In this document: positions 2,747 through 20,710 of the stretch, piece by piece | Position numbering within the stretch: position 1 is the first letter of the stretch | How the letters are laid out: each line of letters starts with the position of its first letter | Origin: an uncultured Acidobacteriota bacterium | Lineage (GTDB): Bacteria; Acidobacteriota; Terriglobia; 20CM-2-55-15 | Length of the DNA stretch: 32,000 nt | Direction of reading: 5' to 3' | Assembly (NCBI GenBank): GCA_963738025.1 | Contig: CAVTWA010000005.1 | Coordinates: 192,502-224,501, forward strand | The notes under the pieces: model-generated | The model's input: the letters and a program-made list of their open reading frames with translations, nothing else | Database searches by the model: none | Told to the model about the DNA's origin: nothing | Position numbers and translations under genes: made by a program

Positions 2747-4205
2747 CTAGGAGGAAGGAAGTTCCTGTCGCTTTCTTGCGTACTTCCAACGCTCGGAGCG
2801 CACGCGCATGTATTCCACCGCTTCTTCGTAGAGCCGTTGCCGCTCATTCGAGTCCCACAGGGCGTCGCGCACAATGCGCCAGACGACTCGCGGCCTGAAA
2901 TAGTAGGAATCGTAGAACCGATTGACAGCTGCCATCATTTCTTCGCGAGGCAGCCCCGGGTATGCGATATGAGGAAGTTGATGGCCTCCACTGTCCGCTG
3001 CAGCTTCGCCGGACATGAAGTTGTTGCCGGCGAGTTGGTTGTACAGTTCCGTCCCCGCGTATGCGTGAGCGATGGACACCTGGATCGTTTCCGTATCCAG
3101 TTCTTTAGCGAAATCGAGTGTTCGCTTTATCGTTTCACGAGTTTCGCCCGGCAATCCGATGATGAAGTCACCATGGATCCGAATGCCGACCTTCTTGCAA
3201 TTCCTGGTGAATTCGCGAGCCTGTTCGACTGTCGCGCCTTTTTTGATGTTTTTCAGAATCTGGGGATCTCCCGATTCATAACCTACGATGAAAAGACGCG
3301 CGCCCGAGTCCGCCATCGCCTTCAGAGTCTCGTAGTCGCTATTCACGCGCGCCGTGCACGACCAGCGGAACTTCAGCGGCTTCAGCTTCGCACAAACATC
3401 AAGGACTCGATCTTTCCGGATGTTGAAGGTGTCATCGTCGAAGAAGAACTCCTTCGCCTGCGGGAACAGCTGCAGCGCCTGCTTTACTTCGCGCGCGACA
3501 TTCTCACTTGAACGCGTACGCCAGGCATGGCCCGATAAAGTCTGTGGCCATAGACAAAAAGTGCACATTGCCGGGCAGCCACGCGACGTATAGAAAGCAA
3601 CGTAGGGATGCAGCAGAAAAGGAACGTTGTAATTTTCAATCTTGAGGTCGCGTTTGTACACTTCCGTAGCGAAAGGCAGCTGGTCGAGATCTTCGGTTTG
3701 CAGCTGCGGCCGGGAAGGGTTCAGCCGCAGGCGGCCATTCTCCAGATAACCGGCGCCAGCAATCTCGCTCAAAGGCTTGCCCTTGGCATACTCGACGACG
3801 GCGTGATCGAACTCGCCGCTGACAATGAAATCGATTTCCGGATTGCTGATCAGACAGTCCGGCTTGATCTGTACGGGCGGCCCGACGAAGGCCACTTTCA
3901 AGCTTCGGCCTGACCTGCTTCATCTGCCGTACCATGGCAACGTCATTTGCGAATCCAACCGTCGATGTGAACAGCACCAGAAACTCATAGTCTCGAGCGA
4001 TCTGGATTGTTTCTTCGGGTGTGACATGATGCGATGGCGCATCCAGCAGCCGGCTGCCCGGCAACATCCCAGCTGGATAGCTCAGCCAGACCGGATACCA
4101 GAACGACTCGATTTCGCGGGTCGCCGGCCAGCGCGAGCTTGCGCCGCCATCAAAGTTCTTGAAACTGGGAGGATTCAACAAAAGAGTTTTCATTACGGAC
4201 GGCAT
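2747..4205 (-). pseudogene. hpnJ: B12-binding radical SAM protein HpnJ, split by an apparent +1 frameshift near 3900-3906 (true pseudogene or sequencing/assembly error)
   Basis: The N-terminal part lies in ORF 3636-4205 (M..MKTLLLNPPSFKNFDGGASSRWPATREIESFWYPVWLSYPAG...DVAMVRQMKQVRPKL). The remainder lies in ORF 2747-3901 (KVAFVGPPVQIKPD...YTSRGCPAMCTFCLWP with CxxxCxxC). The two frames join cleanly as ...RPKL/KVAFVG if one nucleotide in ccgaagCTTGaaagtg is ignored. Confidence 0.8.
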
Positions 4206-8876: not shown

Positions 8877-8882
8877 CAGCAA

Positions 8883-9583: not shown

Positions 9584-9668
9584 CCGATAAATTCGGGGAC
9601 GGTTGCCTAAATCACCTAAATTGCGGAGCAATTTAGGTGATTTAGGCAACCGTCCCCGAATTTATCGG
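9584..9668. repeat. Palindromic repeat family A, perfect copy (41-nt arms, 3-nt centre)
   Basis: The left arm CCGATAAATTCGGGGACGGTTGCCTAAATCACCTAAATTGC (9584-9624) is the exact reverse complement of the right arm (9628-9668), with centre gga. The right arm contains the hpnE stop codon (9662-9664). It fills the gap between hpnE and the deacetylase gene. Confidence 0.95.
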
Positions 9669-11032
9669 GCGAACCACCGCGCCAGGCCGCTCGGGGGCAG
9701 ATCTGGTTTAACCAGGGATACCCGCCGACCCTCCATATCGAGAATGGCTTCCGCGGCCCGGTAACCACTTCGCACAGCGCCTTCCATGGTTGCCGGCCAG
9801 CCCGTCTGTGTCCAATCACCCGCGAGCAACAGATTACGAACTGATGTGGTCGTCTGGGGACGCCAACGGTCACAATCTGGTTCGGGCGAAAACGTGGCCG
9901 TATTTTCTCGAATGACTACTGAACGCAGCAGCCGGGCCTTGCGAACTGCTGGCAGCAATTCACCCAATTCGCGCAGGCAAACGTCGACGACATCTTGCTG
10001 CGAACGATCCGACAAACTACGTGAGGCGCTGATCACAATCTGCAGGTATTCGCCGGCCCTTTTGTTAAAAATCCACTGGATCGTCTGGTCCACGGATGTC
10101 AGAAACGGTTCTGTCATCACGCTGCCTGAGAACCACAAGTGAACACCGGTTATCGGTGACATGCGCAGCTGCTGGACTTTCGCGAACAGGGGGTCACGCT
10201 GCAGATGTTCGGGAAGGAGTTTCATCAGCCTGTCGGCTGTTACGGCAGCGACATAATAGTCGGCTTCCAGAACGCTACCGTCATCGAGCTTGATACCGGA
10301 CACTATTTCCTTAGCGTGGATTTCGGCTATTCCGCACCGCATTCGAACCTGCCCTCCGTTTTGACAGATCCGGTCCCCGCCGGAAGCGTAAAGATCCGCC
10401 AGCGGAACGGATGGAATGCCCATGGCAAATCCCTTCCGGTTGGCTAAAAAGGCTTTCCAGAACACGTCGATACCGTAGCCGGCATCAATGTGATCGAGTT
10501 CCTCGTTCAGCGCGCTGACGAGAACTGTCCGCCAGAAGCGATCAATCGCTTGACGTGTCTGTTTCTGGCGGCGCAGCCAGTCCATCATACTGAGCGTCTC
10601 AGGGAGGCGGGGACGGCCTCCGCTCAGTAGAATCCGCATCAGCGCGCTTGCGATTCCGAGTTTGTCGCGCCAGCTCAGTAGCGAAAATCTAGCGAATGAA
10701 GCGGACAAATGGAATGGTGCGGGAAGAGCAGCGGGCCGCATTTCGGCGCGACGGCCCGTGGAATCCGCGAAGAACAAGGTTTCGTTATATGTAATTTTCG
10801 CCAAGACGCCGATGCGGAAGTAGAAATCCTCCAGGTTCGTGCAGCAGCGAAGGGTGACATGCTGACAGTTGTCGATGTGCTCGTCCCCTTGAAGGACATA
10901 AGACGTTGCCCGGCCACCCAATCGCGGAGAGCGCTCGAACAAAGAAATCCGGCATCCCGCATCTGCTAATGCTGTAGCTGCAGAGAGGCCGGCCAGGCCG
11001 CCTCCGATGACGATTACGTGTGGCGGGGGCAC
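9662..11032 (-). CDS. hpnE: Hydroxysqualene dehydroxylase / squalene-associated FAD-dependent desaturase HpnE
   Basis: The track ORF 9662-11326 has an N-terminal extension lying inside hpnD. The plausible start is GTG 11032 (VPPPHVIVIGGGLAGLSAATALADAGCRISLFERSPRLGGRA, a GxGxxG FAD fold). It has an amine-oxidase-like C-terminus (LLLAGDWTQTGWPATMEGAVRSG) and follows hpnC-hpnD. Confidence 0.85.
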   Translation of the reverse strand: MPPPHVIVIGGGLAGLSAATALADAGCRISLFERSPRLGGRATSYVLQGDEHIDNCQHVTLRCCTNLEDFYFRIGVLAKITYNETLFFADSTGRRAEMRPAALPAPFHLSASFARFSLLSWRDKLGIASALMRILLSGGRPRLPETLSMMDWLRRQKQTRQAIDRFWRTVLVSALNEELDHIDAGYGIDVFWKAFLANRKGFAMGIPSVPLADLYASGGDRICQNGGQVRMRCGIAEIHAKEIVSGIKLDDGSVLEADYYVAAVTADRLMKLLPEHLQRDPLFAKVQQLRMSPITGVHLWFSGSVMTEPFLTSVDQTIQWIFNKRAGEYLQIVISASRSLSDRSQQDVVDVCLRELGELLPAVRKARLLRSVVIRENTATFSPEPDCDRWRPQTTTSVRNLLLAGDWTQTGWPATMEGAVRSGYRAAEAILDMEGRRVSLVKPDLPPSGLARWFAR

Positions 11033-11904
11033 AGTCCCGATTTCCAGAGGCCGGCGCCTGCGCGCAGCATAATCCAGGCTTTTGCCAGTCCGGACAATCC
11101 GGGATGAGGCTGAGCAAGCACGTCGTAATGAATCGATTCTATTTTTGCGAGAATTCCACTGTAAATTCTCATCAACGTCCAGAGAGCTGCCTGGCTGTCG
11201 CGATCGATCAACTGCAACAACTGGACTCCCTCGTCGTATAACCCCCAGGCACGATCGGCCTCGAATCGCATCAGTTGTACGAATGCGGGGCTGGCAACGG
11301 CCCGCGAGAGGTCTTGAGAGCTGCAACCGAACCGCTTTAGATCTTCCTGAGGAAGATAAATTCGCCCCATCGAATAATCTTCCGCGATATCCCGAAGAAT
11401 GTTCGTTAATTGAAAAGCGATTCCAAGCTTCGGCGCCAGATCGAGAGCTTTACGATCTGAAAATCCGAAGACGTGCACACAACACAAGCCAACCGTTCCG
11501 GCTACGCAATAGCAGTAGCGGCTCAAATCTTCGAAGGTCTCATAGGTACGGATGCCGAGATCCATCTCGGTCCCAGACATCAGATCGTGAAAATACTGTG
11601 GAGGAATCTTATACCGCTGGATCGTATCGTGGAACGCAATCAAGAGCTGGTTATTGTTGTAGTTTCCCTGAAGCGCCTGGTCCAGAGCATTGCGCCATGC
11701 CTTTAATCCTTTGCCCTTTTCGCTTACTTCGCCTTCCGCGTCGGAGATGTCATCGGCTCGCCGCATGAACGCATAGAGCGCGCACAGCGCGTCGCGCTTC
11801 GCGGCAGGCAGCAAGGCGAAACCGTAATAAAAATTACGCGCTGCGGCCCACGCGAGGTTGCGACAATGCTCGTAAGAAGCTGCCAATTCGGTAGCGTTTG
11901 GCAT
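11014..11904 (-). CDS. hpnD: Presqualene diphosphate synthase HpnD (squalene/phytoene synthase family)
   Basis: 296-aa ORF with ATG at 11904. It has Asp-rich motifs (YAFMRRADDISD and NILRDIAEDYSMGRIYLP) and the YCYCVAGTVG motif typical of trans-isoprenyl diphosphate synthase head-to-head enzymes. Confidence 0.85.
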   Translation of the reverse strand: MPNATELAASYEHCRNLAWAAARNFYYGFALLPAAKRDALCALYAFMRRADDISDAEGEVSEKGKGLKAWRNALDQALQGNYNNNQLLIAFHDTIQRYKIPPQYFHDLMSGTEMDLGIRTYETFEDLSRYCYCVAGTVGLCCVHVFGFSDRKALDLAPKLGIAFQLTNILRDIAEDYSMGRIYLPQEDLKRFGCSSQDLSRAVASPAFVQLMRFEADRAWGLYDEGVQLLQLIDRDSQAALWTLMRIYSGILAKIESIHYDVLAQPHPGLSGLAKAWIMLRAGAGLWKSGLCPRHT

Positions 11905-12784
11905 AAGTTAGACCCAAAAGACGAAGCTTGGCCCTGCCGCTGAGGGCCGGCCGGATTCGCAGAGTGTTGTAGCCAATGGATTCGATCGCGTCAAGTACGG
12001 CGAGGCCACCCTGGCTGAACAACTCGATATCGACGCGCAGTCCGCCGTCGACTTTTCCCACTAACGGCAAACCTTGTGCAAACAGTGCGCGTGTGCGGAA
12101 GACGAGTTCGCGCATCAATACCTCATACCGCTCGTCGAATTCTTTGTTGAACAGGTCGGTTTCCGTCAATCCATATGCATGCAGCAGATCGAGCGGAATG
12201 TAGATACGGTCCTTATCCAGATCCCGTGCCACATCCTGCCAGAAGTTTGCCAGTTGAAGCGCAGTGCAGGTGAAATCCGATAGTGTCTGCCGCTCCTGGT
12301 CGCGATATCCACCTAAATAGAGCACAAGACGGCCGACCGGGTTTGCCGAGTACCGGCAATAGTCTGCCACCGCGTCCCAATTGGCGTAGCGACGCGTTGT
12401 TTGATCGCGGCGGAACGCCGTAAGCAGATCTTCAAATGGTTGTTTCGGAATGCTGAAAGAGTCGATTGTACGGTGGAGTGCAACGAACACTGCATGGTCT
12501 GGAGAGCCGTCATAGCACCGTTGCAGCCCGTCTCCCCACCAGTTCAGCAGCTCCATGGCGGCTTTCGGATCGGAAATTTCGTCAGCGAGATCATCCGCCC
12601 ACCGGCAATATGCGTAAACGTTGTAAAAGTGTTGCCGGAGATGCCGCGGCAACAGGTAGCTGGCGACCGTGAAATTTTCGTAGTGATGCTTAGCGAGCCA
12701 GCGGGTGTACTCCTGCGCCGACTTCAGCGACGCCCCGGATGGCGGCAAGCGGCGGGCAATCTCGAAATCTGGAGGTAGTTTCAT
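11834..12784 (-). CDS. hpnC: Hydroxysqualene synthase HpnC (squalene/phytoene synthase family)
   Basis: The track ORF begins at TTG 12793; the ATG at 12784 gives MKLPPDFEIARRL... It has motifs YAYCRWADDLADE, YCRYSANPVGRL and NFWQDVARDLDKDRIYIP. Its 3' end overlaps the hpnD start by 71 nt. Confidence 0.85.
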   Translation of the reverse strand: MKLPPDFEIARRLPPSGASLKSAQEYTRWLAKHHYENFTVASYLLPRHLRQHFYNVYAYCRWADDLADEISDPKAAMELLNWWGDGLQRCYDGSPDHAVFVALHRTIDSFSIPKQPFEDLLTAFRRDQTTRRYANWDAVADYCRYSANPVGRLVLYLGGYRDQERQTLSDFTCTALQLANFWQDVARDLDKDRIYIPLDLLHAYGLTETDLFNKEFDERYEVLMRELVFRTRALFAQGLPLVGKVDGGLRVDIELFSQGGLAVLDAIESIGYNTLRIRPALSGRAKLRLLGLTYAKRYRIGSFLRALSQPRVGRSA

Positions 12785-12813
12785 TTCACGCAACCAAAGA
12801 ATTTACCCATGGC

Positions 12814-12888
12814 AATTTGGGGACGGTTGCCTAAATGACCTAAATTGCGGTGCAAATTTAGGTCATTCAGGCAACCGTCCCCGAATTT
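12814..12888. repeat. Palindromic repeat family A, imperfect copy (intergenic ADH-hpnC)
   Basis: The sequence is aatttGGGGACGGTTGCCTAAATGACCTAAATTGCggtGCAAATTTAGGTCATTCAGGCAACCGTCCCCgaattt. It keeps the same core as 9584-9668 with a few substitutions and one indel. The C:G pair of copy 1 (9613/9639) is G:C here (12837/12864). The element ends at the stop codon of the upstream dehydrogenase (12888-12890). Confidence 0.9.
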
Positions 12889-13922
12889 CAGGGCATGACG
12901 GCGACCTTGAGCTGTCCGTTCCGGTTCTTCATATGTTCGAAGACCTGCGGCAGTTCGCTCAACGGAACTTCCCCTGTCACAAAATCCTTCGCGCTGACTT
13001 CACGGCGAGCGATGAGATCGAGAGCTTCGCGTATGAAACGCGGTGTGTGGTGGAAGCTGGATTTGATCGTAATTTCCGAATAATGCACTGCCGAGGCTTC
13101 CAACTCGACCTTGGTTCCACGGGGACATCCGCCAAACAAGTTTATTGCACCCCCGCGCCGGACCATCTGCAGAGCCCATTGCCAGGTCATTGCCGAGCCC
13201 ACGGCCTCAATGACCGAGTCAGCGCCGAACCGCCGGTAGGTGAAGTCCCGAACAGCCGAAACCGGATCGTCGATTTTCGAGATATCCCAGGCTGCGGAAG
13301 CTCCCAGCCGTTCGGCAGCCTTGATTTGACTGCTGCGCTTGCCTAACGCGATTACGTGCGCGCCACGGCTGGACAGCACACGGACGAACTGTAAACCAAT
13401 CGGGCCGCACCCGATGACGACGGCGGTGTCACCAGACTGGATGCCCGTTTCGTCGACAGCCCGGAGCACGCACGCGAGCGGTTCGACGAGAGCGGCTTCA
13501 ATAAAGTCGAGGTGATGTGGTATTTCAATCAGATTCTCGCGCACGATCCGTGCAGGGATCAATGCGTATTCGGCATAAGCGCCGTTGTTGAAAACCAGAT
13601 CTTCGCAGAGATTCGCCTTATCTTTGCGGCAGAAGAAACACTCGTTGCAAGGAGCCGAATTTGCGGCTACAACCCGCATGCCCAGCGGGTACTTGTCGCG
13701 GACGGCATGACCCGCGTCGGCAACGATACCGGAAAGTTCATGTCCGAAGATTGCCGGCGGCACGATCATCCGGGCGTGATAGCCCTGCTTCCAGACTTTG
13801 AAATCCGTTCCGCAGGTCAGAGCCACTTTGACCTGGACCAGAAGGTCCTCCGCTCCGACAGTCGGAACCGCCACCTTTTGAATTTTTAGATCTTCTCGAC
13901 CGTGCAGGACGGCCGCCATCAT
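12888..13922 (-). CDS. Zinc-dependent medium-chain alcohol/polyol dehydrogenase (MDR family), copy 2
   Basis: The track ORF 12888-14096 overlaps the upstream gene. The likely start is ATG 13922 (MMAAVLHGREDLKIQKVAVP...). It has the catalytic-zinc motifs LTCGTD and FGHELSG, the structural-zinc motif CNECFFCRKDKANLC (CxxCxxCx7C) and the Rossmann motif GCGPIG. Confidence 0.85.
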   Translation of the reverse strand: MMAAVLHGREDLKIQKVAVPTVGAEDLLVQVKVALTCGTDFKVWKQGYHARMIVPPAIFGHELSGIVADAGHAVRDKYPLGMRVVAANSAPCNECFFCRKDKANLCEDLVFNNGAYAEYALIPARIVRENLIEIPHHLDFIEAALVEPLACVLRAVDETGIQSGDTAVVIGCGPIGLQFVRVLSSRGAHVIALGKRSSQIKAAERLGASAAWDISKIDDPVSAVRDFTYRRFGADSVIEAVGSAMTWQWALQMVRRGGAINLFGGCPRGTKVELEASAVHYSEITIKSSFHHTPRFIREALDLIARREVSAKDFVTGEVPLSELPQVFEHMKNRNGQLKVAVMP

Positions 13923-13942
13923 GTGCCCGTTGCGAGCAGTCC

Positions 13943-15043
13943 TCACGGCAGAATCACCAGCTTCAGAGAACTGTCTGCGGGATGGGATGCCATCGCAAAA
14001 GCCTGCTCGACCTCGTTGAGTGAAAAACGATGAGTAACAAGTTCGTTCAGAAGAACGTGATTGTCGAAAACAAGGCGCGCCGATTCCTCCTGACAATCAA
14101 CTGCTGCACTGTAGCTGCCAAGAATCTCTTTTTCTTCCACTCCGACGGCCGCTCCTGGAAATTGAATCTGCGTTACCGGATCGTTTTGCGCAAATAAGAG
14201 TACCCGTCCACCGGGCCGTGCAAGGTCCAGTGCGACGGGAACGAGCTTCGCATCCGCCACCGCCAGCAGTACGGCATCGGCCCCTATACCACTGCGCCGC
14301 TTGCGAATTTCTGCGGCGGCATTCGAAGCCGCAGGATCCAGACACGCTTCGGCGCCGAAACGCACACTCATCTGCCGGCGAAAGGGCAGCGGGTCGCTGG
14401 CAAATACCGTAGCGCCCGCTGCGCGGGCTAAAAACGTCAGTAAAAGACCCACAGGGCCTTGTCCGATGACAAAGACGACCTCTCCTGGCGCGACACGCGC
14501 TTTCCGGACTGCTTTCAGGCAGGTGTTTACTGGTTCGACGAAGATGGCTTCCTGAAAGCTCACATCGTCCGGTATCGTCACCACACCGCGATTGACGATA
14601 TGCGGCATTACCCGCACGTATTCGGCAAAGCCGCCGCCATTCGGATCAAACCCGGCTGTGACGCCGGTATTTTTGTATTGAGTACACTGAGAGAACAATT
14701 GTCGATCGCAGTAAAAGCAATTTTCACATGGAATGTGATGAAAGCTGATCACGCGATCACCAATGGACCACCGCTCAACACCCGCTCCAACCTGCACGAT
14801 GCTGCCGGCGATCTCGTGGCCAAAAATCTGCGGTGGTTTGACAAGGTCATGCCGCACTTTCTTGACGTCTGTTCCGCAGATGCCGCAAGCCGCAACCCGA
14901 ATGAGAATCTCACCCGTTCCAACCACGGGCACCGGCACGGTTTCGAGGCCGATCCGGCCTTTGCCGCGATATACGCCCGCCCGCATTTCGTTCGGAATCA
15001 GAACCGGGGATTCGGGTGGCGCTGTCTGCACTCGAGTACTCAT
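13943..15043 (-). CDS. Zinc-dependent medium-chain alcohol/polyol dehydrogenase (MDR family), copy 1
   Basis: 366-aa ORF with motifs ACGICGTD, FGHEIAG, CENCFYCDRQLFSQC (CxxCxxCx7C) and GQGPVG. Its ATG (15043-15041) overlaps the hpnG stop (15042-15040) as ATGA. Confidence 0.85.
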   Translation of the reverse strand: MSTRVQTAPPESPVLIPNEMRAGVYRGKGRIGLETVPVPVVGTGEILIRVAACGICGTDVKKVRHDLVKPPQIFGHEIAGSIVQVGAGVERWSIGDRVISFHHIPCENCFYCDRQLFSQCTQYKNTGVTAGFDPNGGGFAEYVRVMPHIVNRGVVTIPDDVSFQEAIFVEPVNTCLKAVRKARVAPGEVVFVIGQGPVGLLLTFLARAAGATVFASDPLPFRRQMSVRFGAEACLDPAASNAAAEIRKRRSGIGADAVLLAVADAKLVPVALDLARPGGRVLLFAQNDPVTQIQFPGAAVGVEEKEILGSYSAAVDCQEESARLVFDNHVLLNELVTHRFSLNEVEQAFAMASHPADSSLKLVILP

Positions 15044-15750
15044 CGCAATATCGGCTCCGCCGCAATCCGATAACTCTTTTCATTCGACATGAGAAATTTC
15101 ACATAGCGATCCAGAAAACCCGCCAGGTTGCGGATTGCTGCAGAACTGCCGACGCCGAACCTGACGAAATCCGGCAAACGCGCCGGGTGCTTTAATAATT
15201 CCGTGATCATGCTTATCCATGCCAATTCTCCGCGATCGGTTACGGTCTTGCTGAAGTCGATCGGAAGCTTTTGCTCCGGGGAATCCGAAATCGTCCGGAT
15301 TGCAACAGCCGGGACGCCGGCACGCTGTGCTTCGGTGAGCACGTGGAAGCTTTCCATGTCCACAGCGTCGGCCGCCTGAGCGATTTCCGCCCGTTCGGTT
15401 GCGGAATTTGCGATAGCGGCTGAAGTGAAGAAAAAATCCAAGGGTTTTGCGCCACAACGAACTGCAGCATCGATCAGACCTCCGTCTCCAGGAATGACCG
15501 TCTTTTTGCCTGCAGCTCTGACGCCCCGAGCGACGGTGATCGTGCCGACGCGGTTTTCACTTTTCAGGCTGCCCGCCAGGCCGGATGCAATGCACACATC
15601 GACACCGCGAGCGAGGGCTTGCCGGAGTTCGACTGGCGAGCGGCGCATTCCGATACCTGTTAAAACCACTTGAATGTCTTCAGTCAGTTCTGCAGGTCCG
15701 CGCCAGTCGCGCATCTCCGATCGAACCGCGAACGTTACTAAAATCTTCAT
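15040..15750 (-). CDS. hpnG: Hopanoid-associated phosphorylase/nucleosidase HpnG (PNP/UDP family)
   Basis: The track ORF starts at TTG 15765; the ATG at 15750 gives MKILVTFAVRSEM... It shows PNP_UDP-like segments (VCIASGLAGSL, DAVDMESFHV, VAIRTISD). It sits between hpnA and the dehydrogenases, downstream of hpnH. Confidence 0.7.
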   Translation of the reverse strand: MKILVTFAVRSEMRDWRGPAELTEDIQVVLTGIGMRRSPVELRQALARGVDVCIASGLAGSLKSENRVGTITVARGVRAAGKKTVIPGDGGLIDAAVRCGAKPLDFFFTSAAIANSATERAEIAQAADAVDMESFHVLTEAQRAGVPAVAIRTISDSPEQKLPIDFSKTVTDRGELAWISMITELLKHPARLPDFVRFGVGSSAAIRNLAGFLDRYVKFLMSNEKSYRIAAEPILR

Positions 15751-15771
15751 GCGAGTCTTTTTCAACCTGGC

Positions 15772-16782
15772 TCAGGCTGCCCCGCGATTTGCGCCACGCG
15801 TGACGTAGCCATTATCGACATACCAGCGCGCTGCGCGCTCTAAAGCAGCGTCCACGCTGCCGGCTGAGAAGCCAAGTTCGCGCTGGGCGAGCGAACAATC
15901 GACAAACATTTTGTGCCGTGACATGCGAACACCTTCCAGAGGAATCCGGGGTTCGCGCCCCGTTAACGAGCAGAATATGTTTTCTGCAAAGCCCGCGGCC
16001 AGTGCAGCCGCGTACGGCATCTTTAGACGCGGAGCACGGCGGTTGGTGGCTGCAGCGAGCGAATCCAGAATCTGCTTCAGGCTCATGTTCCTGCCGCCGA
16101 GGATGTACCGTTGTCCAATGCGGCCGTGCTGGAGCGCCTGCCAATGGCCTGCCGCCACGTCCTCAACGGCGACGATGTTCATACCCGTATCGACATACGC
16201 GGGCATGCGACCGTTTAAAAAGTCTAGGATAATGCGACCGGTTGGTGTGGGCTTCCAATCGCAAGGTCCTACGGGCGTTGTCGGATTGACGACGACAGCA
16301 GGAAAACCCCTGGCCGCGGCTTCCAGGACGGCTTCTTCGGCCAGCAGTTTGGATTTCTTGTAGTGGCCGATCATGTCGTCGACAGTCGCCTTTGTCCTTT
16401 CGTCCGGCAGACTCTGTGAGTGCGGGACTGCTATCGTCCCGACCGTGCTGGTGTATATGAACCGCTCAACTCCGGCACTGCGGGCGGCCGCGATCAGATT
16501 GTTTGTACCCAGAAGGTTGCTCTCGTAAAGTTCATTGGCATCTCTGGACCACAGGCGATAGTCGGCTGCCACATGAAACACATGGCTGACGCCCTTGAGC
16601 GCCTGATCCAGAGAAGACTGGTTGCGCAGGTCTCCTTCGAACGCTTCAACAGGTAAATCCCGAATGAAACGGCGTTCACTTGTGCGACGAACGAGAACGC
16701 GGACGTCCCTTGTTTTCTCAACAAGCAAGCGCGTCACATGCAATCCGACAAATCCCGTCGCACCGGTGACTAATGTCGCCAT
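15772..16782 (-). CDS. hpnA: Hopanoid-associated NAD-dependent sugar epimerase/reductase HpnA (SDR, extended family)
   Basis: The track ORF is 15772-16833. The likely start is ATG 16782 (MATLVTGATGFVGLHV, a GxxGxxG motif), which overlaps the hpnH stop as ATGA. It has the YxxxK motif (HYKKSK) and resembles dihydroflavonol-reductase-like SDRs. Confidence 0.8.
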   Translation of the reverse strand: MATLVTGATGFVGLHVTRLLVEKTRDVRVLVRRTSERRFIRDLPVEAFEGDLRNQSSLDQALKGVSHVFHVAADYRLWSRDANELYESNLLGTNNLIAAARSAGVERFIYTSTVGTIAVPHSQSLPDERTKATVDDMIGHYKKSKLLAEEAVLEAAARGFPAVVVNPTTPVGPCDWKPTPTGRIILDFLNGRMPAYVDTGMNIVAVEDVAAGHWQALQHGRIGQRYILGGRNMSLKQILDSLAAATNRRAPRLKMPYAAALAAGFAENIFCSLTGREPRIPLEGVRMSRHKMFVDCSLAQRELGFSAGSVDAALERAARWYVDNGYVTRGANRGAA

Positions 16783-17819
16783 CAGGCAGTGACGCTCCGG
16801 GGGCGCATCTTCGCTGGACTGGATAACTGCCATTTCAGCAGCTTCCAGCTGTCTCCCAACTTCCGGTTTGCTCCCAGCACGGCAGACGGTTCGTACCCCG
16901 CGTGGACCATACAGTCGGCGCAGCGTGGATCGCGACCATGGCCGTATTTTTCCCAGGGAGTCTTGTCGATCAGGTCCTTGAATGACGAGTGGTGCTTGTC
17001 CGTCATCAGGTAGCAGGGCCCCTTCCAGCCGCGCGGGTTGTAGGTTGGATTACCCCACGCCGTGCACATCATGTCGCGCTCACCGGCAAGGAATTCCAGA
17101 TAGATCGGCGACGTCATGAGCTGAAAGTGTCCGAGCAGTTCGCGCGCCTGGCGGAACTTTTCGCGAATGTCGTCGCGCGACATGAAGATTTCTTTCGATT
17201 GCACTGCGGCATACGAATACGCAGGCGAAACCATGAATCCGTCAACGCCCAGGCCCGACAGGTATTCGAATAGTTGGCGGATTTCCTTCAAGTCGGTTTC
17301 TTTGAAAATGGTCGTGTTGGTACAAACCAGGAAACCGGCTTCCTTCGCTGCCTTGATTCCTTCAATCGCCAGCTGAAAAACCCCTTCCCGCTCGACGCAC
17401 ATGTCATGCGTTTTTTCGAGACCATCGAGGTGCACGTTGAAGAACAGCCGCGACGAGGGTTTGAACTCGTGCAGGCGTTTCTTAAGAAACATTCCATGCG
17501 TGCACAAATAGATGTGCTTTTTGCGGCCCAATAACTCACTCACAAGACGCCCGAGTTCGGGGTAAATCATGGGTTCGCCGCCGCAAATCGAAACGATGGG
17601 CGCGCCGCATTCCTCAGCTGCAGCAAGGCACTGCTCAACGGAAAGCTTTTCTTTGATTGTGTCGGCATATTCACGGATGCGACCGCAGCCGGTGCACGTC
17701 AGATTGCACGCGTGCAGGGGCTCGAGCATCATCACCAGAGGAAACTTGTCGACGCCGCGTAGCCTTTTGCCAGCGATGTACTTGGACATGCTGGTTGTCA
17801 TAGTCAGTGGAAATCTCAC
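16782..17819 (-). CDS. hpnH: Adenosylhopane synthase HpnH (radical SAM)
   Basis: 345-aa ORF with radical SAM motif LEPLHACNLTCTGCGRI (CxxxCxxC) and a C-terminal segment WGNPTYNPRGWKGPCYLM...DPRCADCMVHAGYE typical of HpnH. The GTG at 17819 overlaps the shc stop by 1 nt; alternative ATG starts are at 17801 and 17789. Confidence 0.9.
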   Translation of the reverse strand: MRFPLTMTTSMSKYIAGKRLRGVDKFPLVMMLEPLHACNLTCTGCGRIREYADTIKEKLSVEQCLAAAEECGAPIVSICGGEPMIYPELGRLVSELLGRKKHIYLCTHGMFLKKRLHEFKPSSRLFFNVHLDGLEKTHDMCVEREGVFQLAIEGIKAAKEAGFLVCTNTTIFKETDLKEIRQLFEYLSGLGVDGFMVSPAYSYAAVQSKEIFMSRDDIREKFRQARELLGHFQLMTSPIYLEFLAGERDMMCTAWGNPTYNPRGWKGPCYLMTDKHHSSFKDLIDKTPWEKYGHGRDPRCADCMVHAGYEPSAVLGANRKLGDSWKLLKWQLSSPAKMRPRSVTA

Positions 17820-19720
17820 TAAACCCTCGCTAACTGTCGATATCGAGCTAGTGCAAACATTGGAAAATAATGACGGTAAAGATGGTATTTCAAATAAAAC
17901 ACCTTCGGAAAACCCGTCCCTGTAAACGGCACTTCATCCCAGGAGCCATGATCGTTCTGGCGTTCCAGCAGATATGCAACGGCCGACTGAACAGCCGGAT
18001 CATTCACGTCGTAGACCGTGAGCAGTCCGAGCAGGCCCCAGGCCGTCTGCGACGGCGTGCTTTCGCCCCTTCCCATCTCAGCAGGATCGTTGTACGACGT
18101 GCACGATTCGCCAAATCCGCCGTCTGCGTTCTGAACCGAGCGGAGCCATTCCGCGGCTTTGACCATCGCCGGATGCTGTCTTAATCCAACCGCATATAGA
18201 GCCCGCAAAACGCCGCTCGTGCCATATACATAATTGACTCCCCAGCGGCCATACCAGGGACCATTGGGGTATTGCTCCTTCAGCACATATGCAATTCCCC
18301 GTTGGACGCGAGCGTCGGCATCGGTCCAGCCGAACCGGCCGAAGCACTCCAGCACGCGGGCGGTCACGTCAGGAGACGATGGATCAAGCATGGCGTTGTG
18401 ATCGGCGAAGGGGATATGGTTCAAAATGGCGCGATCGTTGTCGCGGTCAAAGGCTCCCCAGCCGCCATCCCGGTTTTGCATACTTGCCAGCCACTTCATT
18501 CCTAGATCGACGGAGTGGTCCAAGCGTTCGCGGTCGGGGTAGGGAGCATTTTGAAGCGCCATCAGCACAAATGCCGTGTCGTCGACGTCCGGATAGAAAT
18601 CATTGCGAAATTCGAAAGCCCAGCCGCCGGGCGATGCATCCCGATTTTTGATTTGCCAGTCACCCGACCCCAGAATCTGTTTGTCCAGCAACCACTCCGT
18701 GGCTCTTTTCAACACATCGTCAGATCGTGAACCGGCCTCGATCAGCGTGAATGCAGCAATTGCCGTGTCCCAGACCGGCGACAAACAGGGCTGCAGGCGA
18801 ATCGTGATGCTGTCTTCGATTTCGAATTTGCCGAACTCGCTGATCTGCCGCGCGGTCAATGGATGCGTCGGAGAATGGCCAAGAGCCATCAGAGCGAAAA
18901 TGGAATTCATCATTGCCGGATAGATGGCAGCGAGGCCTTCCGTGCGCTCCAGATGTTCGACCATCCAGTCCGTTGCCAGATCCAACGCGCGTTTGCGTCC
19001 GGGTTTCCAGGGGATTCGTTCGTAAATCTTGAGCCCGCGGTCGAGAGTGAGGAAGGCGTTTCGCCAGCTGACTTCGGCGCCTATTTCAAACATCGCCTTC
19101 GTCTTTGACCGGTCGCAGAATAACTCGTCCAGGTGCGCGGTTTTCGGCACGGGCCAGCACGGCTTGTGCGCATATAGAATCGTCAGAGGCACAACGATCG
19201 CGCGAGTCCACGACGACATCTCGTAGATGTTGATGTACGCCCAATTGGGCAAAAGCATCAGCTCCGGCGGTATGGCCGGCACCATTTCCCAACTGATCAC
19301 GCCGGCAAGCGCCAGATAAAGTCGGGTAAACGAATTTGTATGTTCCAGGCCGCCAAGTTCGCGGACACGGCGGCAGGCGCGCACCATATGCGGAGCGTCC
19401 GGAGAGTCCCCGGCAAGTTTCAGCGCGAAATAGGCCTTAACCGTGGCGTTTACTTCAGAAGGGCCGCCGCTGAAGATGTTCCAGCCGCCATCGCTCAACT
19501 GCCGGCGGCGCACATACTCCGCGAGTTTGCGGACGCGGATGTGATCGAACTTATCCAGAACGTGGAGGTAGAAGATATAGTCGGATTCGAGCGTCGTGTC
19601 CGCTTCCAGCTCACCCAGCCAGTAACCTTCTTCGTACTGCAGAGAGATTAGAAACGAAACCGCGCGCTCGAGCGATTCTTCGAGCAGGGATTGTGTTTCG
19701 AGTTCTAGATTCTGTGACAT
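17819..19720 (-). CDS. shc: Squalene-hopene cyclase
   Basis: 633-aa ORF with the catalytic DxDD motif in FYPDVDDTAFVLMAL. It has multiple QW repeats (RRRQLSDGGWNIF, LASMQNRDGGWGAF, LRSVQNADGGFGE, LLERQNDHGSWDE) and the terminal GTGFPKVFYLKYHLYRHYFP segment. Confidence 0.95.
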   Translation of the reverse strand: MSQNLELETQSLLEESLERAVSFLISLQYEEGYWLGELEADTTLESDYIFYLHVLDKFDHIRVRKLAEYVRRRQLSDGGWNIFSGGPSEVNATVKAYFALKLAGDSPDAPHMVRACRRVRELGGLEHTNSFTRLYLALAGVISWEMVPAIPPELMLLPNWAYINIYEMSSWTRAIVVPLTILYAHKPCWPVPKTAHLDELFCDRSKTKAMFEIGAEVSWRNAFLTLDRGLKIYERIPWKPGRKRALDLATDWMVEHLERTEGLAAIYPAMMNSIFALMALGHSPTHPLTARQISEFGKFEIEDSITIRLQPCLSPVWDTAIAAFTLIEAGSRSDDVLKRATEWLLDKQILGSGDWQIKNRDASPGGWAFEFRNDFYPDVDDTAFVLMALQNAPYPDRERLDHSVDLGMKWLASMQNRDGGWGAFDRDNDRAILNHIPFADHNAMLDPSSPDVTARVLECFGRFGWTDADARVQRGIAYVLKEQYPNGPWYGRWGVNYVYGTSGVLRALYAVGLRQHPAMVKAAEWLRSVQNADGGFGESCTSYNDPAEMGRGESTPSQTAWGLLGLLTVYDVNDPAVQSAVAYLLERQNDHGSWDEVPFTGTGFPKVFYLKYHLYRHYFPMFALARYRQLARV

Positions 19721-19729
19721 TTTTAGGTG

Positions 19730-20710
19730 TTAAGAACCGACACGTTCGAATTTGTCCAGTGGCGCCGGTAAAGGAAAATGTACGTTCTCTTCGATGAGTT
19801 CCACTTCTTCAATTCTGGTAAAGCCTCGCTGCCGCAGGCTTTCCACGACCTGCTGGACTAAAATTTCGGGAGTAGAAGCACCGGCCGTGACCCCGACATT
19901 CTCGCAATCGGCAAGCCATTCGGCTTGAATGTCTCTGGCACTTGCGATCAAGTGCGCCGCGGTACCCTTTCCGCGCGCTACCTCGACAAGGCGGTTCGAA
20001 TTCGAGCTGTTCTCCGCGCCCACCACGAGGATCAGGTTCGCCCGTTCGGCAAGCGCCTTGACGGCAGTCTGACGATTCTGGGTCGCATAGCAAATGTCGG
20101 AACTTGCAGGGGAAATGATCGAAGGAAAGCGTTGCTTTAAACGATCGACAATCGCCTGCGCGTCGTCGAGACTCAAGGTGGTCTGAGTGGCGTAGATCAC
20201 GCGGTCCGCTTGAACGTTTTCAAGCGCATCGACGTCATCGACGCTGGATACGACGTGAATGTGATTTGGCGCCTCACCGAATGTCCCGATCACTTCGTCA
20301 TGATTCCGGTGACCAATCAGAATGATGCTGTAGCCTTCTTTGGCGTACCGGACGACTTCGATATGCACTTTTGTCACAAGCGGGCAGGTCGCATCGATCA
20401 CCGACAACCGGCGCCGGTCCGCGTCGTCCCGCACATCGGGGGCAACGCCGTGCGCGCTGAAAATGGTGACCGCGCCGTCCGGCACTTCTTTCAGGTCTTC
20501 GACGAAAACGGCTCCCCGGGCTGCCAGTTCATCGACTACAAACCGGTTGTGGACGATTTCCTTCCGTACGTAAACCGGTGCGCCGAGCCTTTCCAGCGCT
20601 ATTTCGACAATATCGATTGCTCGAATAACACCGGCGCAAAAGCCTCTCGGTTTTGGAAGTAATACAGTTTTAGCATGCTCCGGCATCAACTCTCCCGCGC
20701 GCAAACTCAT
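19730..20710 (-). CDS. ispH: 4-hydroxy-3-methylbut-2-enyl diphosphate reductase (IspH/LytB)
   Basis: 326-aa ORF with ATG at 20710. The three cluster-binding Cys contexts are present (RGFCAGV, DATCPLVTKVH, SDICYATQNRQ), as are the SAHGV and VVGAENSSNSNRL motifs. Confidence 0.95.
   Translation of the reverse strand: MSLRAGELMPEHAKTVLLPKPRGFCAGVIRAIDIVEIALERLGAPVYVRKEIVHNRFVVDELAARGAVFVEDLKEVPDGAVTIFSAHGVAPDVRDDADRRRLSVIDATCPLVTKVHIEVVRYAKEGYSIILIGHRNHDEVIGTFGEAPNHIHVVSSVDDVDALENVQADRVIYATQTTLSLDDAQAIVDRLKQRFPSIISPASSDICYATQNRQTAVKALAERANLILVVGAENSSNSNRLVEVARGKGTAAHLIASARDIQAEWLADCENVGVTAGASTPEILVQQVVESLRQRGFTRIEEVELIEENVHFPLPAPLDKFERVGS

What the first reader, a model, noticed from the sequence alone, without database searches (positions are those of the whole stretch)
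12888..15043. Tandem Zn-dependent dehydrogenases translationally coupled to hpnG: candidates for the unassigned ribosylhopane -> bacteriohopanetetrol reductase
Seen: two paralogous MDR-type dehydrogenase genes directly follow hpnG. Both appear intact, with CGTD and GHE catalytic-zinc motifs, a CxxCxxCx7C structural-zinc site and a GxGxxG Rossmann motif. The hpnG stop and the first ADH start overlap as ATGA (15040-15043). The pair ends the ispH-shc-hpnH-hpnA-hpnG module, just before a palindromic punctuation element. Established: Shc makes hopene, HpnH makes adenosylhopane and HpnG removes adenine to give ribosylhopane. Conversion of ribosylhopane, via its open-chain aldehyde, to bacteriohopanetetrol is a NAD(P)H-dependent reduction. 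To my knowledge no gene has been firmly assigned to that step. Inference: an aldehyde/polyol-reducing MDR enzyme placed immediately after hpnG is the right chemistry in the right position. Two copies could form a heteromer or act on different side-chain carbonyls.
Basis: partly seen in the sequence, partly recalled or inferred. Interest (0 to 1): 0.72.

Follow-up and report, generated by a model that had tools for sequence, protein, structure and literature searches.

The report
Paired zinc dehydrogenases inside hopanoid cluster
Two intact zinc-dependent dehydrogenase genes sit as a fixed pair inside the hopanoid lipid gene cluster of soil Acidobacteria, which makes them good but unproven candidates for the one hopanoid side-chain step that still has no assigned enzyme.

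Summary
ADH1 (15043-13943) and ADH2 (13946 or 13922 to 12888) are intact zinc-dependent medium-chain dehydrogenases (MDRs) on the minus strand.

The pair does not end the module. It lies between hpnA-hpnG and hpnC-hpnD-hpnE.

The two proteins are only 29% identical, so they are ancient paralogues. ADH2 followed ADH1 in 146 of 147 related loci. At least one hopanoid or squalene gene was nearby in 129 of 134 loci with enough flank. These include an Armatimonadota MAG and other deep lineages.

ADH1 keeps an NAD-type Asp. ADH2 keeps an NADP-type Gly-Lys/Arg-Arg.

Papers up to 2025-26 still give no enzyme for ribosylhopane to bacteriohopanetetrol (BHT). The window also encodes the BHT-consuming enzymes HpnI and HpnJ. 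That leaves HpnA, ADH1 and ADH2 as the only unassigned enzymes in the cluster.

Three points weigh against the assignment:
- Sinninghe Damsté et al. (2017) already noted these genes as ug1 and ug2, without proposing a function.
- A BHT producer lacks ug2.
- The pair is linked to hpnCDE as tightly as to hpnG.

The reductase role is plausible but unproven. Interest 0.55.

The parts
13943..15043 (-). ADH1: 366-aa zinc-dependent MDR dehydrogenase with an NAD-type cofactor motif (Asp217). It probably corresponds to 'ug1' of Sinninghe Damsté et al. 2017.
   Evidence: ORF. Pfam ADH_N at 93.7 bits and ADH_zinc_N at 64.7 bits. No NCBIfam equivalog; the best hit is Tdh at 157 bits against a cut-off of 458. 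C53, H76, E77, E170 and C106/109/112/120 are invariant in 80 sequences, and D217 is kept in 79 of 80. The AlphaFold2 model has pLDDT 85 and TM about 0.8 to MDR structures.
12888..13946 (-). ADH2: 352-aa zinc-dependent MDR dehydrogenase (344 aa if it starts at ATG 13922) with an NADP-type motif (Gly194-Lys195-Arg196 in 344-aa numbering). It probably corresponds to 'ug2'.
   Evidence: ORF. Pfam ADH_N, ADH_zinc_N and Glu_dehyd_C (44 bits against a cut-off of 34.9). H61, E62, E147 and C92/95/98/106 are invariant; C37 is kept in 71 of 76 sequences; K/R195 in 74 of 76; R196 in 73 of 76. The best solved-structure relative is 4ej6 at E=6e-49. A start codon overlaps the ADH1 stop by 4 nt in 51 of 80 orthologous loci. 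Gene callers report both 352-aa and 344-aa forms.
15040..15765 (-). hpnG-like nucleoside phosphorylase/nucleosidase whose stop overlaps the ADH1 start (ATGA).
   Evidence: Pfam PNP_UDP_1. The best NCBIfam hit is TIGR03468 HpnG, at 103.5 bits and below its cut-off of 187. Equally divergent HpnG-like ORFs sit directly upstream of ADH1 in Bryobacterales and Terriglobales loci. A 4-nt overlap with ADH1 occurs in 42 of 80 loci.
15772..16833 (-). hpnA: hopanoid-associated NAD-dependent epimerase/dehydratase-family SDR. Its function is unknown, and it is a rival candidate for the reductase.
   Evidence: TIGR03466 at 448 bits against a cut-off of 368. It lies upstream of the pair in most loci, directly so where hpnG is absent.
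16782..17819 (-). hpnH: adenosylhopane synthase (radical SAM).
   Evidence: TIGR03470 at 446 bits against a cut-off of 225.
17819..19720 (-). shc: squalene-hopene cyclase.
   Evidence: TIGR01507 at 757 bits.
19730..20710 (-). ispH.
   Evidence: NF002189 at 453 bits.
12814..12887 (.). Palindrome of 33-nt arms that starts immediately after the ADH2 stop and lies between ADH2 and hpnC.
   Evidence: Arms are 94% complementary. The RNA hairpin folds at -62.6 kcal/mol, z = -10.5, with no T tail. A second copy lies at 9595-9657 after hpnE; 4 arm matches were found against 0 expected.
11834..12793 (-). hpnC: hydroxysqualene synthase.
   Evidence: TIGR03464 at 332 bits against a cut-off of 250.
11014..11904 (-). 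hpnD: presqualene diphosphate synthase.
   Evidence: TIGR03465 at 276.5 bits, just under the cut-off of 278.6.
9662..11326 (-). hpnE: hydroxysqualene dehydroxylase. The true start is probably later than the ORF start.
   Evidence: TIGR03467 at 452 bits against a cut-off of 283; the match begins at residue 104 of the ORF.
781..1923 (-). hpnI: the glycosyltransferase that uses BHT as acceptor.
   Evidence: TIGR03472 at 383.5 bits against a cut-off of 310.
2747..4205 (-). hpnJ, split into two overlapping ORFs (3636-4205 and 2747-3901).
   Evidence: TIGR03471 positions 1-141 and 98-470 fall on the two separate ORFs.

Best explanation
ADH1 and ADH2 are a co-inherited, co-translated pair of active zinc-dependent MDR oxidoreductases that belong to the hopanoid pathway of Terriglobia-type Acidobacteriota and a few other lineages. 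The most likely substrate is the ribose-derived C5 side chain of extended (C35) hopanoids.

Proposed mechanism (inferred, not shown): HpnH adds 5'-deoxyadenosyl to diploptene, and the HpnG-like enzyme removes adenine to give ribosylhopane. The pair then carries out NAD(P)-dependent redox chemistry on that sugar or polyol. ADH2 is the NADPH-type enzyme and would reduce the carbonyl form to the polyol BHT. ADH1 is the NAD-type enzyme and would carry out a second step, either as a partner subunit or as an oxidising or epimerising step on a secondary hydroxyl. HpnI and HpnJ, encoded in the same window, would then use the BHT.

Shown here: gene integrity, conserved active sites, the contrast in cofactor motifs, pair co-inheritance, frequent 4-nt start/stop overlaps and hopanoid-cluster synteny. 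Inferred: the substrate, the direction of the reaction and the division of labour between the two enzymes.
For: 1. Synteny. Of 165 related loci from genomes and metagenomes, ADH2 follows ADH1 in 146 of 147 with room. At least one hopanoid or squalene gene is present in 129 of 134 loci with 3 kb or more of flank. The immediate upstream neighbour is HpnG in 88 loci and HpnA in 30. The immediate downstream neighbour is HpnC in 94 and HpnD in 11.
2. Coupling. Start and stop codons overlap by 4 nt at hpnG/ADH1 in 42 of 80 loci and at ADH1/ADH2 in 51 of 80. In the window these are ATGA and GTGA.
3. Both enzymes look active. The catalytic Cys/His/Glu/Glu and the four structural Cys are invariant or nearly so.
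4. Cofactor contrast. ADH1 Asp217 aligns with the Glu of an NAD-dependent TDH, and with Ala199 of the NADP-dependent ketose reductase 1e3j. ADH2 has Gly-Lys-Arg there.
5. The nearest characterised relatives are polyol, sugar and threonine dehydrogenases. ADH2 also passes the Pfam threshold for the glucose-dehydrogenase C-terminal domain.
6. Pathway-hole logic. The reduction step has no assigned enzyme. The cluster encodes the BHT-using enzymes HpnI and HpnJ. HpnA, ADH1 and ADH2 are its only unassigned enzymes.
7. Sinninghe Damsté et al. 2017 report ug2 in all subdivision 1 and 3 acidobacteria. That includes species lacking hpnC and hpnE, which argues against a hydroxysqualene substrate.
8. From my own memory of a paper the library does not hold: Bodlenner et al. 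2015 found that the cell-free reduction of ribosylhopane needed NADPH.
Against: - C. thermophilum makes BHT and BHT cyclitol ether yet lacks ug2. From my own knowledge, the hpn clusters of Rhodopseudomonas, Zymomonas, Burkholderia and Streptomyces contain no such pair. It therefore cannot be the universal reductase.
- The pair is linked to hpnC-hpnD(-hpnE) as tightly as to hpnG. L081 (Armatimonadota) and L086 have the pair next to hpnCD(E) with no hpnG adjacent.
- L083, L085 and L087 show the pair with no hopanoid gene nearby.
- One whole lineage has ispH-hpnA-ADH1-ADH2-hpnD-shc with neither hpnG nor hpnH in the operon.
- One reduction needs only one enzyme.
- Polyol/threonine-dehydrogenase-type MDRs usually act on secondary alcohols or ketones, and aldose reduction is usually done by aldo-keto reductases.
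- Close structural relatives include a C=C reductase, AibC.
- HpnA is an equally placed candidate.
- The NADP-type motif of ADH2 is not kept in the most distant pairs: L085 has Asp and L086 has Glu at that position.
Confidence: 0.35

Rival explanations
1. The pair modifies the finished side chain rather than making BHT. An NAD+-dependent oxidation by ADH1 would be coupled to an NADPH-dependent reduction by ADH2, or to further chemistry. Possible products are a BHT stereoisomer, a keto, lactone or amino derivative, or the handle for the very polar or bound hopanoids of subdivision 1 and 3 acidobacteria. BHT itself would be made by HpnA or by a housekeeping reductase.
For: Opposite cofactor types are conserved within the pair, as in oxidise-then-reduce epimerisation couples. 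About 90% of the bacteriohopanepolyols in a subdivision 1 strain are not solvent-extractable, and their intact structures are unknown. C. thermophilum, which lacks ug2, makes ordinary BHT and BHT cyclitol ether. The family's typical chemistry is on secondary hydroxyls. ADH2 matches the sugar-1-dehydrogenase C-terminal domain.
Against: No acidobacterial hopanoid with such a modification has been described in the papers read. Rohmer degradation gave ordinary tetrafunctionalised products. The cofactor contrast is lost in some distant pairs.
Confidence: 0.22
2. The pair serves squalene or precursor supply together with HpnC, HpnD and HpnE. For example, it could act on hydroxysqualene or a farnesyl-derived alcohol or aldehyde. 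Its position next to hpnG would then be an accident of operon fusion.
For: hpnC or hpnD is the immediate downstream neighbour in 105 of 115 loci. The pair travels with hpnCD(E) and has no hpnG next to it in Armatimonadota (L081), L086 and L122. Sinninghe Damsté et al. 2017 grouped ug2 with hpnC-D-E.
Against: From my own knowledge (Pan et al. 2015, as cited), HpnC, HpnD and HpnE alone suffice for squalene synthesis in E. coli, so no step is missing there. ug2 persists in species lacking hpnC and hpnE. In L017, L045, L049, L051 and L165 the pair stays with hpnA-hpnG while hpnCDE lie elsewhere. A zinc alcohol dehydrogenase cannot deoxygenate hydroxysqualene.
Confidence: 0.13
3. The pair is an ordinary polyol, sugar or threonine dehydrogenase pair of central or osmolyte metabolism that has become fixed in the operon and has no hopanoid substrate.
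For: Sources annotate it as L-iditol 2-dehydrogenase. The pair occurs without hopanoid neighbours in L083, L085, L087, L090 and L157. In the Armatimonadota MAG it lies next to a threonine-aldolase-like gene.
Against: A fixed position inside the hopanoid operon with start/stop overlaps, kept across lineages whose ADH1 orthologues are only about 50% identical to the window's, is hard to explain by chance. Scores lie far below every curated equivalog cut-off.
Confidence: 0.12
4. HpnA, not the MDR pair, is the ribosylhopane reductase.
For: HpnA is an NAD(P)-dependent SDR found in essentially all of these clusters. Sinninghe Damsté et al. proposed it for this step.
Against: The same paper cites evidence that hpnA is not essential for BHT in Burkholderia cenocepacia and that Rhodopseudomonas lacks hpnA.
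Confidence: 0.1

Closest known systems
Polyol-dehydrogenase / L-threonine 3-dehydrogenase branch of the zinc MDR superfamily (for example whitefly NADP(H)-ketose reductase 1e3j, human sorbitol dehydrogenase 1pl6 and Pyrococcus TDH 2d8a/2dfv)
   Same: The two-domain architecture is the same: a GroES-like domain plus a Rossmann domain. So are the catalytic zinc ligands (Cys/His/Glu plus a second Glu), the four-Cys structural zinc lobe and the GxGxxG motif. Identity is about 24-30% and the ADH1 model superposes at TM about 0.8.
   Different: Scores are far below every curated equivalog cut-off, at 137-157 bits against 380-458. ADH1 and ADH2 each form their own conserved orthologue group, with signatures such as FVEPVNTCLK in ADH1 and RGYHARM, FGGCP and HYSEIT in ADH2. 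They always occur as a pair within hopanoid operons, which is not known for sorbitol or threonine dehydrogenases.
ug1 and ug2 of Sinninghe Damsté et al. 2017 (Front Microbiol 8:968)
   Same: The positions match: ug1 comes after hpnA-hpnG and ug2 comes before hpnC-hpnD-hpnE. ug2 is described as a Zn-binding alcohol dehydrogenase of about 350 aa present in all subdivision 1 and 3 acidobacteria.
   Different: That paper left both genes as 'unknown function', tied ug2 to squalene genes and proposed hpnA for the reduction. It did not report that ug1 and ug2 are an obligate pair of distant paralogues, the cofactor contrast, or the occurrence outside Acidobacteriota. The identity of ADH1 with ug1 is inferred from position only, because the figure could not be read.
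TarJ / CDP-ribitol synthase (ribulose-5-phosphate reductase, an MDR; from my own knowledge)
   Same: It is an NADPH-dependent zinc MDR that turns a pentose-derived carbonyl into a ribitol unit. BHT's side chain is in effect a C5-substituted ribitol.
   Different: No specific sequence relationship was tested. TarJ reduces a 2-ketose phosphate, not a lipid-linked aldose. The nucleotidyltransferase::MDR fusion P0136 found here is only 38-41% identical to ADH1.
The NADPH-dependent ribosylhopane-reducing activity in Methylobacterium organophilum extracts (Bodlenner et al. 2015; known from citation and my own memory)
   Same: It is the reaction proposed for the pair, and its cofactor matches the ADH2 motif.
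   Different: The protein behind that activity was never identified. Whether Methylobacterium has an orthologue of the pair was not testable here.

Membership tests
[quoted passage not shown] | N-terminal GroES-like catalytic domain plus C-terminal Rossmann domain (PF08240 and PF00107 above gathering score). | tested here: met
   ADH1 scores 93.7 and 64.7 bits; ADH2 scores 73.3 and 66.2 bits. All are above cut-off.
[quoted passage not shown] | Catalytic zinc ligands (Cys, His and Glu, with a second Glu in this branch) and a four-Cys structural zinc site. | tested here: met
   ADH1 C53, H76, E77, E170 and C106/109/112/120 are kept in 80 of 80 sequences. In ADH2, C37 is kept in 71 of 76 (Asp in 5), and H61, E62, E147 and C92/95/98/106 in 76 of 76. 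The assignment to ligand positions rests on alignment with 1e3j, 2d8a and 4ej6.
[quoted passage not shown] | MDR three-dimensional fold. | tested here: met
   The ADH1 model has pLDDT 85 and pTM 0.85. Foldseek against the PDB gives TM 0.76-0.84 to MDR structures. The ADH2 model failed (pLDDT 37), so for ADH2 the fold rests on sequence only (4ej6, E=6e-49).
L-threonine 3-dehydrogenase (TIGR00692 / NF003808) | Whole-protein score at or above the curated equivalog cut-off. | tested here: not met
   ADH1 scores 157 and 148 bits, and ADH2 137 and 136 bits, against cut-offs of 458 and 380.
Sorbitol / L-iditol 2-dehydrogenase (the label given by JGI) | Close sequence relationship to characterised sorbitol dehydrogenases, and activity on sorbitol or iditol. 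| tested here: inconclusive
   Foldseek gives only 22-28% identity between the ADH1 model and 1pl6, 3qe3 and 1e3j. For ADH2 these are phmmer matches only, at E=2e-34 to 1e-29. There is no curated equivalog match. Activity cannot be tested here.
Hopanoid biosynthesis (hpn) gene set | Conserved placement within hopanoid gene clusters across lineages. | tested here: met
   129 of 134 loci with enough flank carry hopanoid or squalene genes. The order hpnA-(hpnG)-ADH1-ADH2-hpnC/D is conserved. An Armatimonadota MAG also shows it.
Hopanoid biosynthesis (hpn) gene set | A hopanoid phenotype on deletion, or activity on a hopanoid substrate. | not testable with these tools
Ribosylhopane reductase (the unassigned BHT-forming step) | Use of NADPH. 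| tested here: inconclusive
   ADH2 has the NADP-type Gly-Lys/Arg-Arg where NAD enzymes have Asp or Glu. This is an inference from a motif. ADH1 is NAD-type, and distant ADH2 orthologues vary.
Ribosylhopane reductase (the unassigned BHT-forming step) | Presence in every organism that makes BHT. | tested here: not met
   C. thermophilum makes BHT and BHT cyclitol ether but lacks ug2, according to Sinninghe Damsté et al. 2017. The pair could therefore be at most a lineage-specific solution.
Ribosylhopane reductase (the unassigned BHT-forming step) | Co-occurrence with hpnH and hpnG, the genes that make the substrate. | tested here: inconclusive
   hpnG or hpnA is adjacent in 118 of 136 loci. However, several lineages show the pair with no hpnG or hpnH within 10 kb. 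Whole-genome presence could not be checked.

The most novel reading that the evidence does not exclude
ADH1 and ADH2 form a dedicated, possibly heteromeric, NAD/NADPH two-enzyme module that converts ribosylhopane into BHT or a BHT stereoisomer or derivative. In Terriglobia-type Acidobacteriota and some other phyla it would be the missing last enzyme of C35 hopanoid side-chain formation. Other bacteria would solve the step with unrelated reductases.
Probability: 0.3. Interest if true: 0.75.

Novelty: new member of a known kind. Interest (0 to 1): 0.55.

Why it matters
Bacteriohopanepolyols are major bacterial membrane lipids and the source of the geological hopane record. The route from squalene to BHT has one step with no gene: the reduction of ribosylhopane. 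That has been so since the intermediate was described in 2014-15, and papers from 2025-26 still say so.

A conserved, cluster-embedded pair of intact oxidoreductases turns the question into a short experiment. The test is co-expression with shc, hpnH and hpnG, or an assay with synthetic ribosylhopane.

Even if the pair does something else to the side chain, it would bear on another open problem. Acidobacterial hopanoids are mostly non-extractable and structurally uncharacterised, although Acidobacteria are among the most abundant soil bacteria.

The limits are clear. The chemistry is ordinary dehydrogenase chemistry, the co-location was already noted in 2017, and the pair cannot be the universal enzyme.

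Tried and rejected
- TDH, sorbitol dehydrogenase, IolM and other curated families: all NCBIfam scores are far below cut-off, so I rejected membership.
- HpnG::ADH fusion as Rosetta-stone evidence: the long relatives (P0136, P0221, P0156, P0176, P0181, P0219) showed no HpnG domain. P0136 is a sugar-1-phosphate nucleotidyltransferase::MDR fusion, and the others have no recognisable extra domain.
- Recent tandem duplication: rejected, because the two proteins are 29% identical and both orthologue types are already separate in distant lineages.
- The palindrome as an intrinsic terminator: it has no T tail and no promoter-like site follows it. Promoter-like and terminator-like counts across the cluster are at chance level.
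- ADH2 structure: the AlphaFold2 model from 15 close homologues failed (pLDDT 37). No fold search was run for ADH2.
- Taxonomy of the hpnG-less lineage (L168 type): cluster look-ups returned no organism names. Its proteins are roughly equidistant from all labelled acidobacterial orders.
- Reading Bodlenner et al. 2015 and Liu et al. 2014 directly: neither is held in the library.
- P0125 (43% identical to ADH1) is a lone MDR in a cyanobacterial context and is not part of a pair. I excluded it from the family counts.
- My first ADH2 set contained two mis-extracted ADH1 sequences (L050, L076). They account for the 'D:2' at position 194, and I noted and discounted them.


Full report
**Observation**

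The minus strand of the window carries a row of genes:

| Gene | Coordinates |
|---|---|
| ispH | 20710-19730 |
| shc | 19720-17819 |
| hpnH | 17819-16782 |
| hpnA | 16833-15772 |
| hpnG-like phosphorylase | 15765-15040 |
| ADH1 | 15043-13943 |
| ADH2 | 13946 or 13922 to 12888 |
| 74-nt palindrome | 12887-12814 |
| hpnC | 12793-11834 |
| hpnD | 11904-11014 |
| hpnE | 11326-9662 |

- hpnH, hpnA, shc, ispH, hpnC and hpnE pass their NCBIfam cut-offs. hpnD misses its cut-off by 2 bits.
- The hpnG-like gene has HpnG as its best hit but scores 103 bits against a cut-off of 187.
- The ADH1 start and the hpnG stop overlap as ATGA at 15043-15040.
- Both ADH ORFs are intact. Each has the CGTD and GHE motifs, the CxxCxxCx7C motif and GxGxxG, and each passes Pfam ADH_N and ADH_zinc_N.

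The description is therefore correct, with two amendments. First, the pair lies in the middle of the hopanoid cluster, between the side-chain genes and the squalene genes, not at its end. Second, the two proteins share only 29% identity.

**What the proteins are**

- No curated NCBIfam equivalog claims either protein. The best hits are Tdh and IolM at 137-157 bits against cut-offs of 380-458.
- The nearest solved structures belong to the polyol/threonine dehydrogenase branch of the zinc MDRs. They include whitefly NADP(H)-ketose reductase 1e3j, archaeal TDHs, sorbitol dehydrogenases and the uncharacterised 4ej6.
- An AlphaFold2 model of ADH1 (pLDDT 85) superposes on these at TM about 0.8. The ADH2 model failed.

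I extracted orthologues from 80 genome loci.

- In ADH1, C53, H76, E77, E170 and the four structural Cys are invariant.
- In ADH2, H61, E62, E147 and the four structural Cys are invariant. C37 is Cys in 71 of 76 sequences and Asp in 5.
- At the end of the second Rossmann strand, ADH1 keeps Asp217 in 79 of 80 sequences. ADH2 has Gly-Lys/Arg-Arg at that point.
- In the HMMER alignments this position is Glu in an NAD-dependent TDH and Ala199-Arg200 in the NADP-dependent ketose reductase.

By the established rule for MDR cofactor choice, ADH1 is an NAD-type enzyme and ADH2 an NADP-type enzyme. This is an inference from a motif. It weakens in the most distant pairs.

**Synteny**

A scan of one genome per GTDB species with an ADH1 alignment found more than 587 relatives. 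The best 80 were kept. Nearly all are labelled Acidobacteriota (Acidiferrales, Terriglobales, Bryobacterales). I searched these loci with the window's hopanoid proteins by tblastn. Every locus that reached past ADH1 had ADH1 followed by ADH2. Wherever the flanks allowed, the pair lay between hpnA(-hpnG) and hpnC-hpnD(-hpnE).

In the loci about 50% identical to the window's ADH1, tblastn missed hpnG. Even so, the ORF directly upstream of ADH1 is a divergent HpnG-like phosphorylase.

Start and stop codons overlap by 4 nt at hpnG/ADH1 in 42 of 80 loci and at ADH1/ADH2 in 51 of 80. This suggests that the window's ADH2 starts at GTG 13946.

A search of 1.8 billion cluster representatives showed a handful of full-length relatives at 40-48% identity, followed by a continuum of ordinary MDRs. 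Their contexts were as follows:

- An Armatimonadota MAG has a threonine-aldolase-like gene, then ADH1, ADH2, hpnC, hpnD and hpnE.
- Another lineage has ADH1-ADH2-hpnC-hpnD with overlapping starts.
- Three lineages have the pair alone.

In all of these, the first gene is ADH1-type (41-45% identical) and the second is ADH2-type (43-48% in four of the five loci, 34% in L087). The pair is therefore an old two-gene unit.

A metagenome scan seeded with these distant sequences gave 80 more loci, again almost all inside hopanoid clusters. One recurrent architecture is ispH-hpnA-ADH1-ADH2-hpnD-(shc), with no hpnG.

Totals over 165 loci:

| Measure | Count |
|---|---|
| ADH2 adjacent to ADH1, where there is room | 146 of 147 |
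| At least one hopanoid or squalene gene, with 3 kb or more of flank | 129 of 134 |
| Upstream neighbour HpnG / HpnA / none | 88 / 30 / 18 |
| Downstream neighbour HpnC / HpnD / none | 94 / 11 / 10 |

The sample is dominated by one phylum, so the loci are not independent events.

**What the synteny does and does not say**

It places the pair firmly in the hopanoid pathway. It does not choose between the side-chain half and the squalene half.

- Some lineages keep the pair with hpnA-hpnG while hpnCDE lie elsewhere: L017, L045, L049, L051 and L165.
- Others keep it with hpnCD(E) only: L081, L086 and L122.

Three arguments tip the balance towards the side chain.

1. The squalene route has no missing step, whereas the side-chain route does. 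A November 2025 paper states that the enzyme for ribosylhopane to BHT 'has not yet been established'. [quoted passage not shown] Targeted searches found no paper assigning a dehydrogenase.
2. According to Sinninghe Damsté et al. 2017, ug2 is kept in subdivision 1 species that lack hpnC and hpnE.
3. The window also encodes HpnI (above cut-off) and HpnJ, which consume BHT. BHT must be made, and the only unassigned enzymes in the cluster are three NAD(P)-dependent oxidoreductases: HpnA, ADH1 and ADH2.

- C. thermophilum lacks ug2 yet makes BHT and BHT cyclitol ether. From my own knowledge, the classical model producers have no such pair in their hpn clusters.
- A single reduction does not explain two co-inherited enzymes with opposite cofactor types.
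- This MDR branch normally handles secondary alcohols and ketones.
- HpnA is an equally placed candidate.

A side-chain modification remains a serious rival. Candidates are an oxidise-then-reduce epimerisation, or formation of a keto, lactone or amino handle. About 90% of the bacteriohopanepolyols in a subdivision 1 strain are not solvent-extractable, and their intact structures are unknown.

**Prior knowledge and novelty**

The co-location is not new. Sinninghe Damsté et al. 2017 drew 'ug1' after hpnA-hpnG and 'ug2', a Zn-binding alcohol dehydrogenase of about 350 aa, before hpnC. They left both as unknown.

New here:

- ug1 and ug2 are an obligate pair of deeply diverged paralogues.
- Start/stop overlaps at the gene junctions are frequent.
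- The cofactor contrast is conserved.
- The pair occurs outside Acidobacteriota.
- The explicit link to the unassigned reduction.

I file this as a new member of a known kind of enzyme with a testable candidate role. Confidence that the pair acts on the C35 side chain, with BHT formation the favoured reaction, is 0.35. Interest is 0.55.

Noticed in passing
window 12814-12887 and 9595-9657: The same long palindrome occurs twice: directly after the ADH2 stop and directly after the hpnE stop, so it brackets hpnC-D-E. The arms are about 28-33 nt. The RNA hairpin folds at -62.6 kcal/mol (z = -10.5) and has no T tail. It looks like a REP-type repeated element rather than an intrinsic terminator.
   Followed up: partly
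window 2747-4205 (minus strand): hpnJ is split into two overlapping ORFs. ORF 3636-4205 covers HpnJ profile positions 1-141, and ORF 2747-3901 covers positions 98-470. This suggests a frameshift, which could be a pseudogene, a sequencing error or programmed.
   Followed up: no
window 8883-9563 (minus strand): A NodB-type polysaccharide deacetylase (PF01522) lies immediately downstream of hpnE. Subdivision 1 and 3 acidobacteria are reported to have hpnI and hpnJ but to lack hpnK. This enzyme could therefore be the missing deacetylase for BHT-N-acetylglucosamine.
   Followed up: no
window 4305-8882 (minus strand): A tripartite efflux set lies between the hopanoid genes and hpnJ/hpnI: a HlyD-type adaptor, a TPR protein, a MacB/FtsX permease and an OEP outer-membrane factor. 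A possible role in lipid export was not examined.
   Followed up: no
L168 7795-15105; also L091, L092, L094, L108, L114, L125, L130, L132, L136, L144, L145: A distinct lineage has the operon ispH-hpnA-ADH1-ADH2-(single hpnD-like synthase)-shc, with no hpnG, hpnH, hpnC or hpnE nearby. Its proteins are roughly equidistant from all labelled acidobacterial orders. The organism could not be named.
   Followed up: partly
L081 8946-9977 (Armatimonadota MAG GCA_028871815.1): A threonine-aldolase-like PLP enzyme (PF01212, 321 bits) sits directly upstream of the ADH pair and hpnC-D-E. No shc, hpnH or hpnG lies within 10 kb.
   Followed up: partly
protein P0136 (602 aa, Logan contig): A fusion of a sugar-1-phosphate nucleotidyltransferase domain (residues 1-250) with an ADH1-like MDR (38-41% identical). 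It recalls the pairing of CDP-ribitol synthase with its reductase.
   Followed up: partly
L021, L029, L041, L043, L053, L062: MAGs labelled Verrucomicrobiia, Rugosimonospora, Binatia, Patescibacteria and Eisenbacteria carry clusters that are 60-65% identical to, and fully syntenic with, those of Acidiferrales. These labels (SMAG series) look unreliable, or the bins are contaminated.
   Followed up: no
ADH2 orthologues, e.g. L034 9052-10083: In 5 of 76 ADH2 orthologues the catalytic-zinc Cys (C37) is replaced by Asp, while all the other ligands are kept.
   Followed up: no
window 22446-25088 and 28201-31008 (plus strand): Two large Ser/Thr protein kinases, with PD40 beta-propeller or TPR C-terminal regions, flank the cluster on the ispH side.
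   Followed up: no
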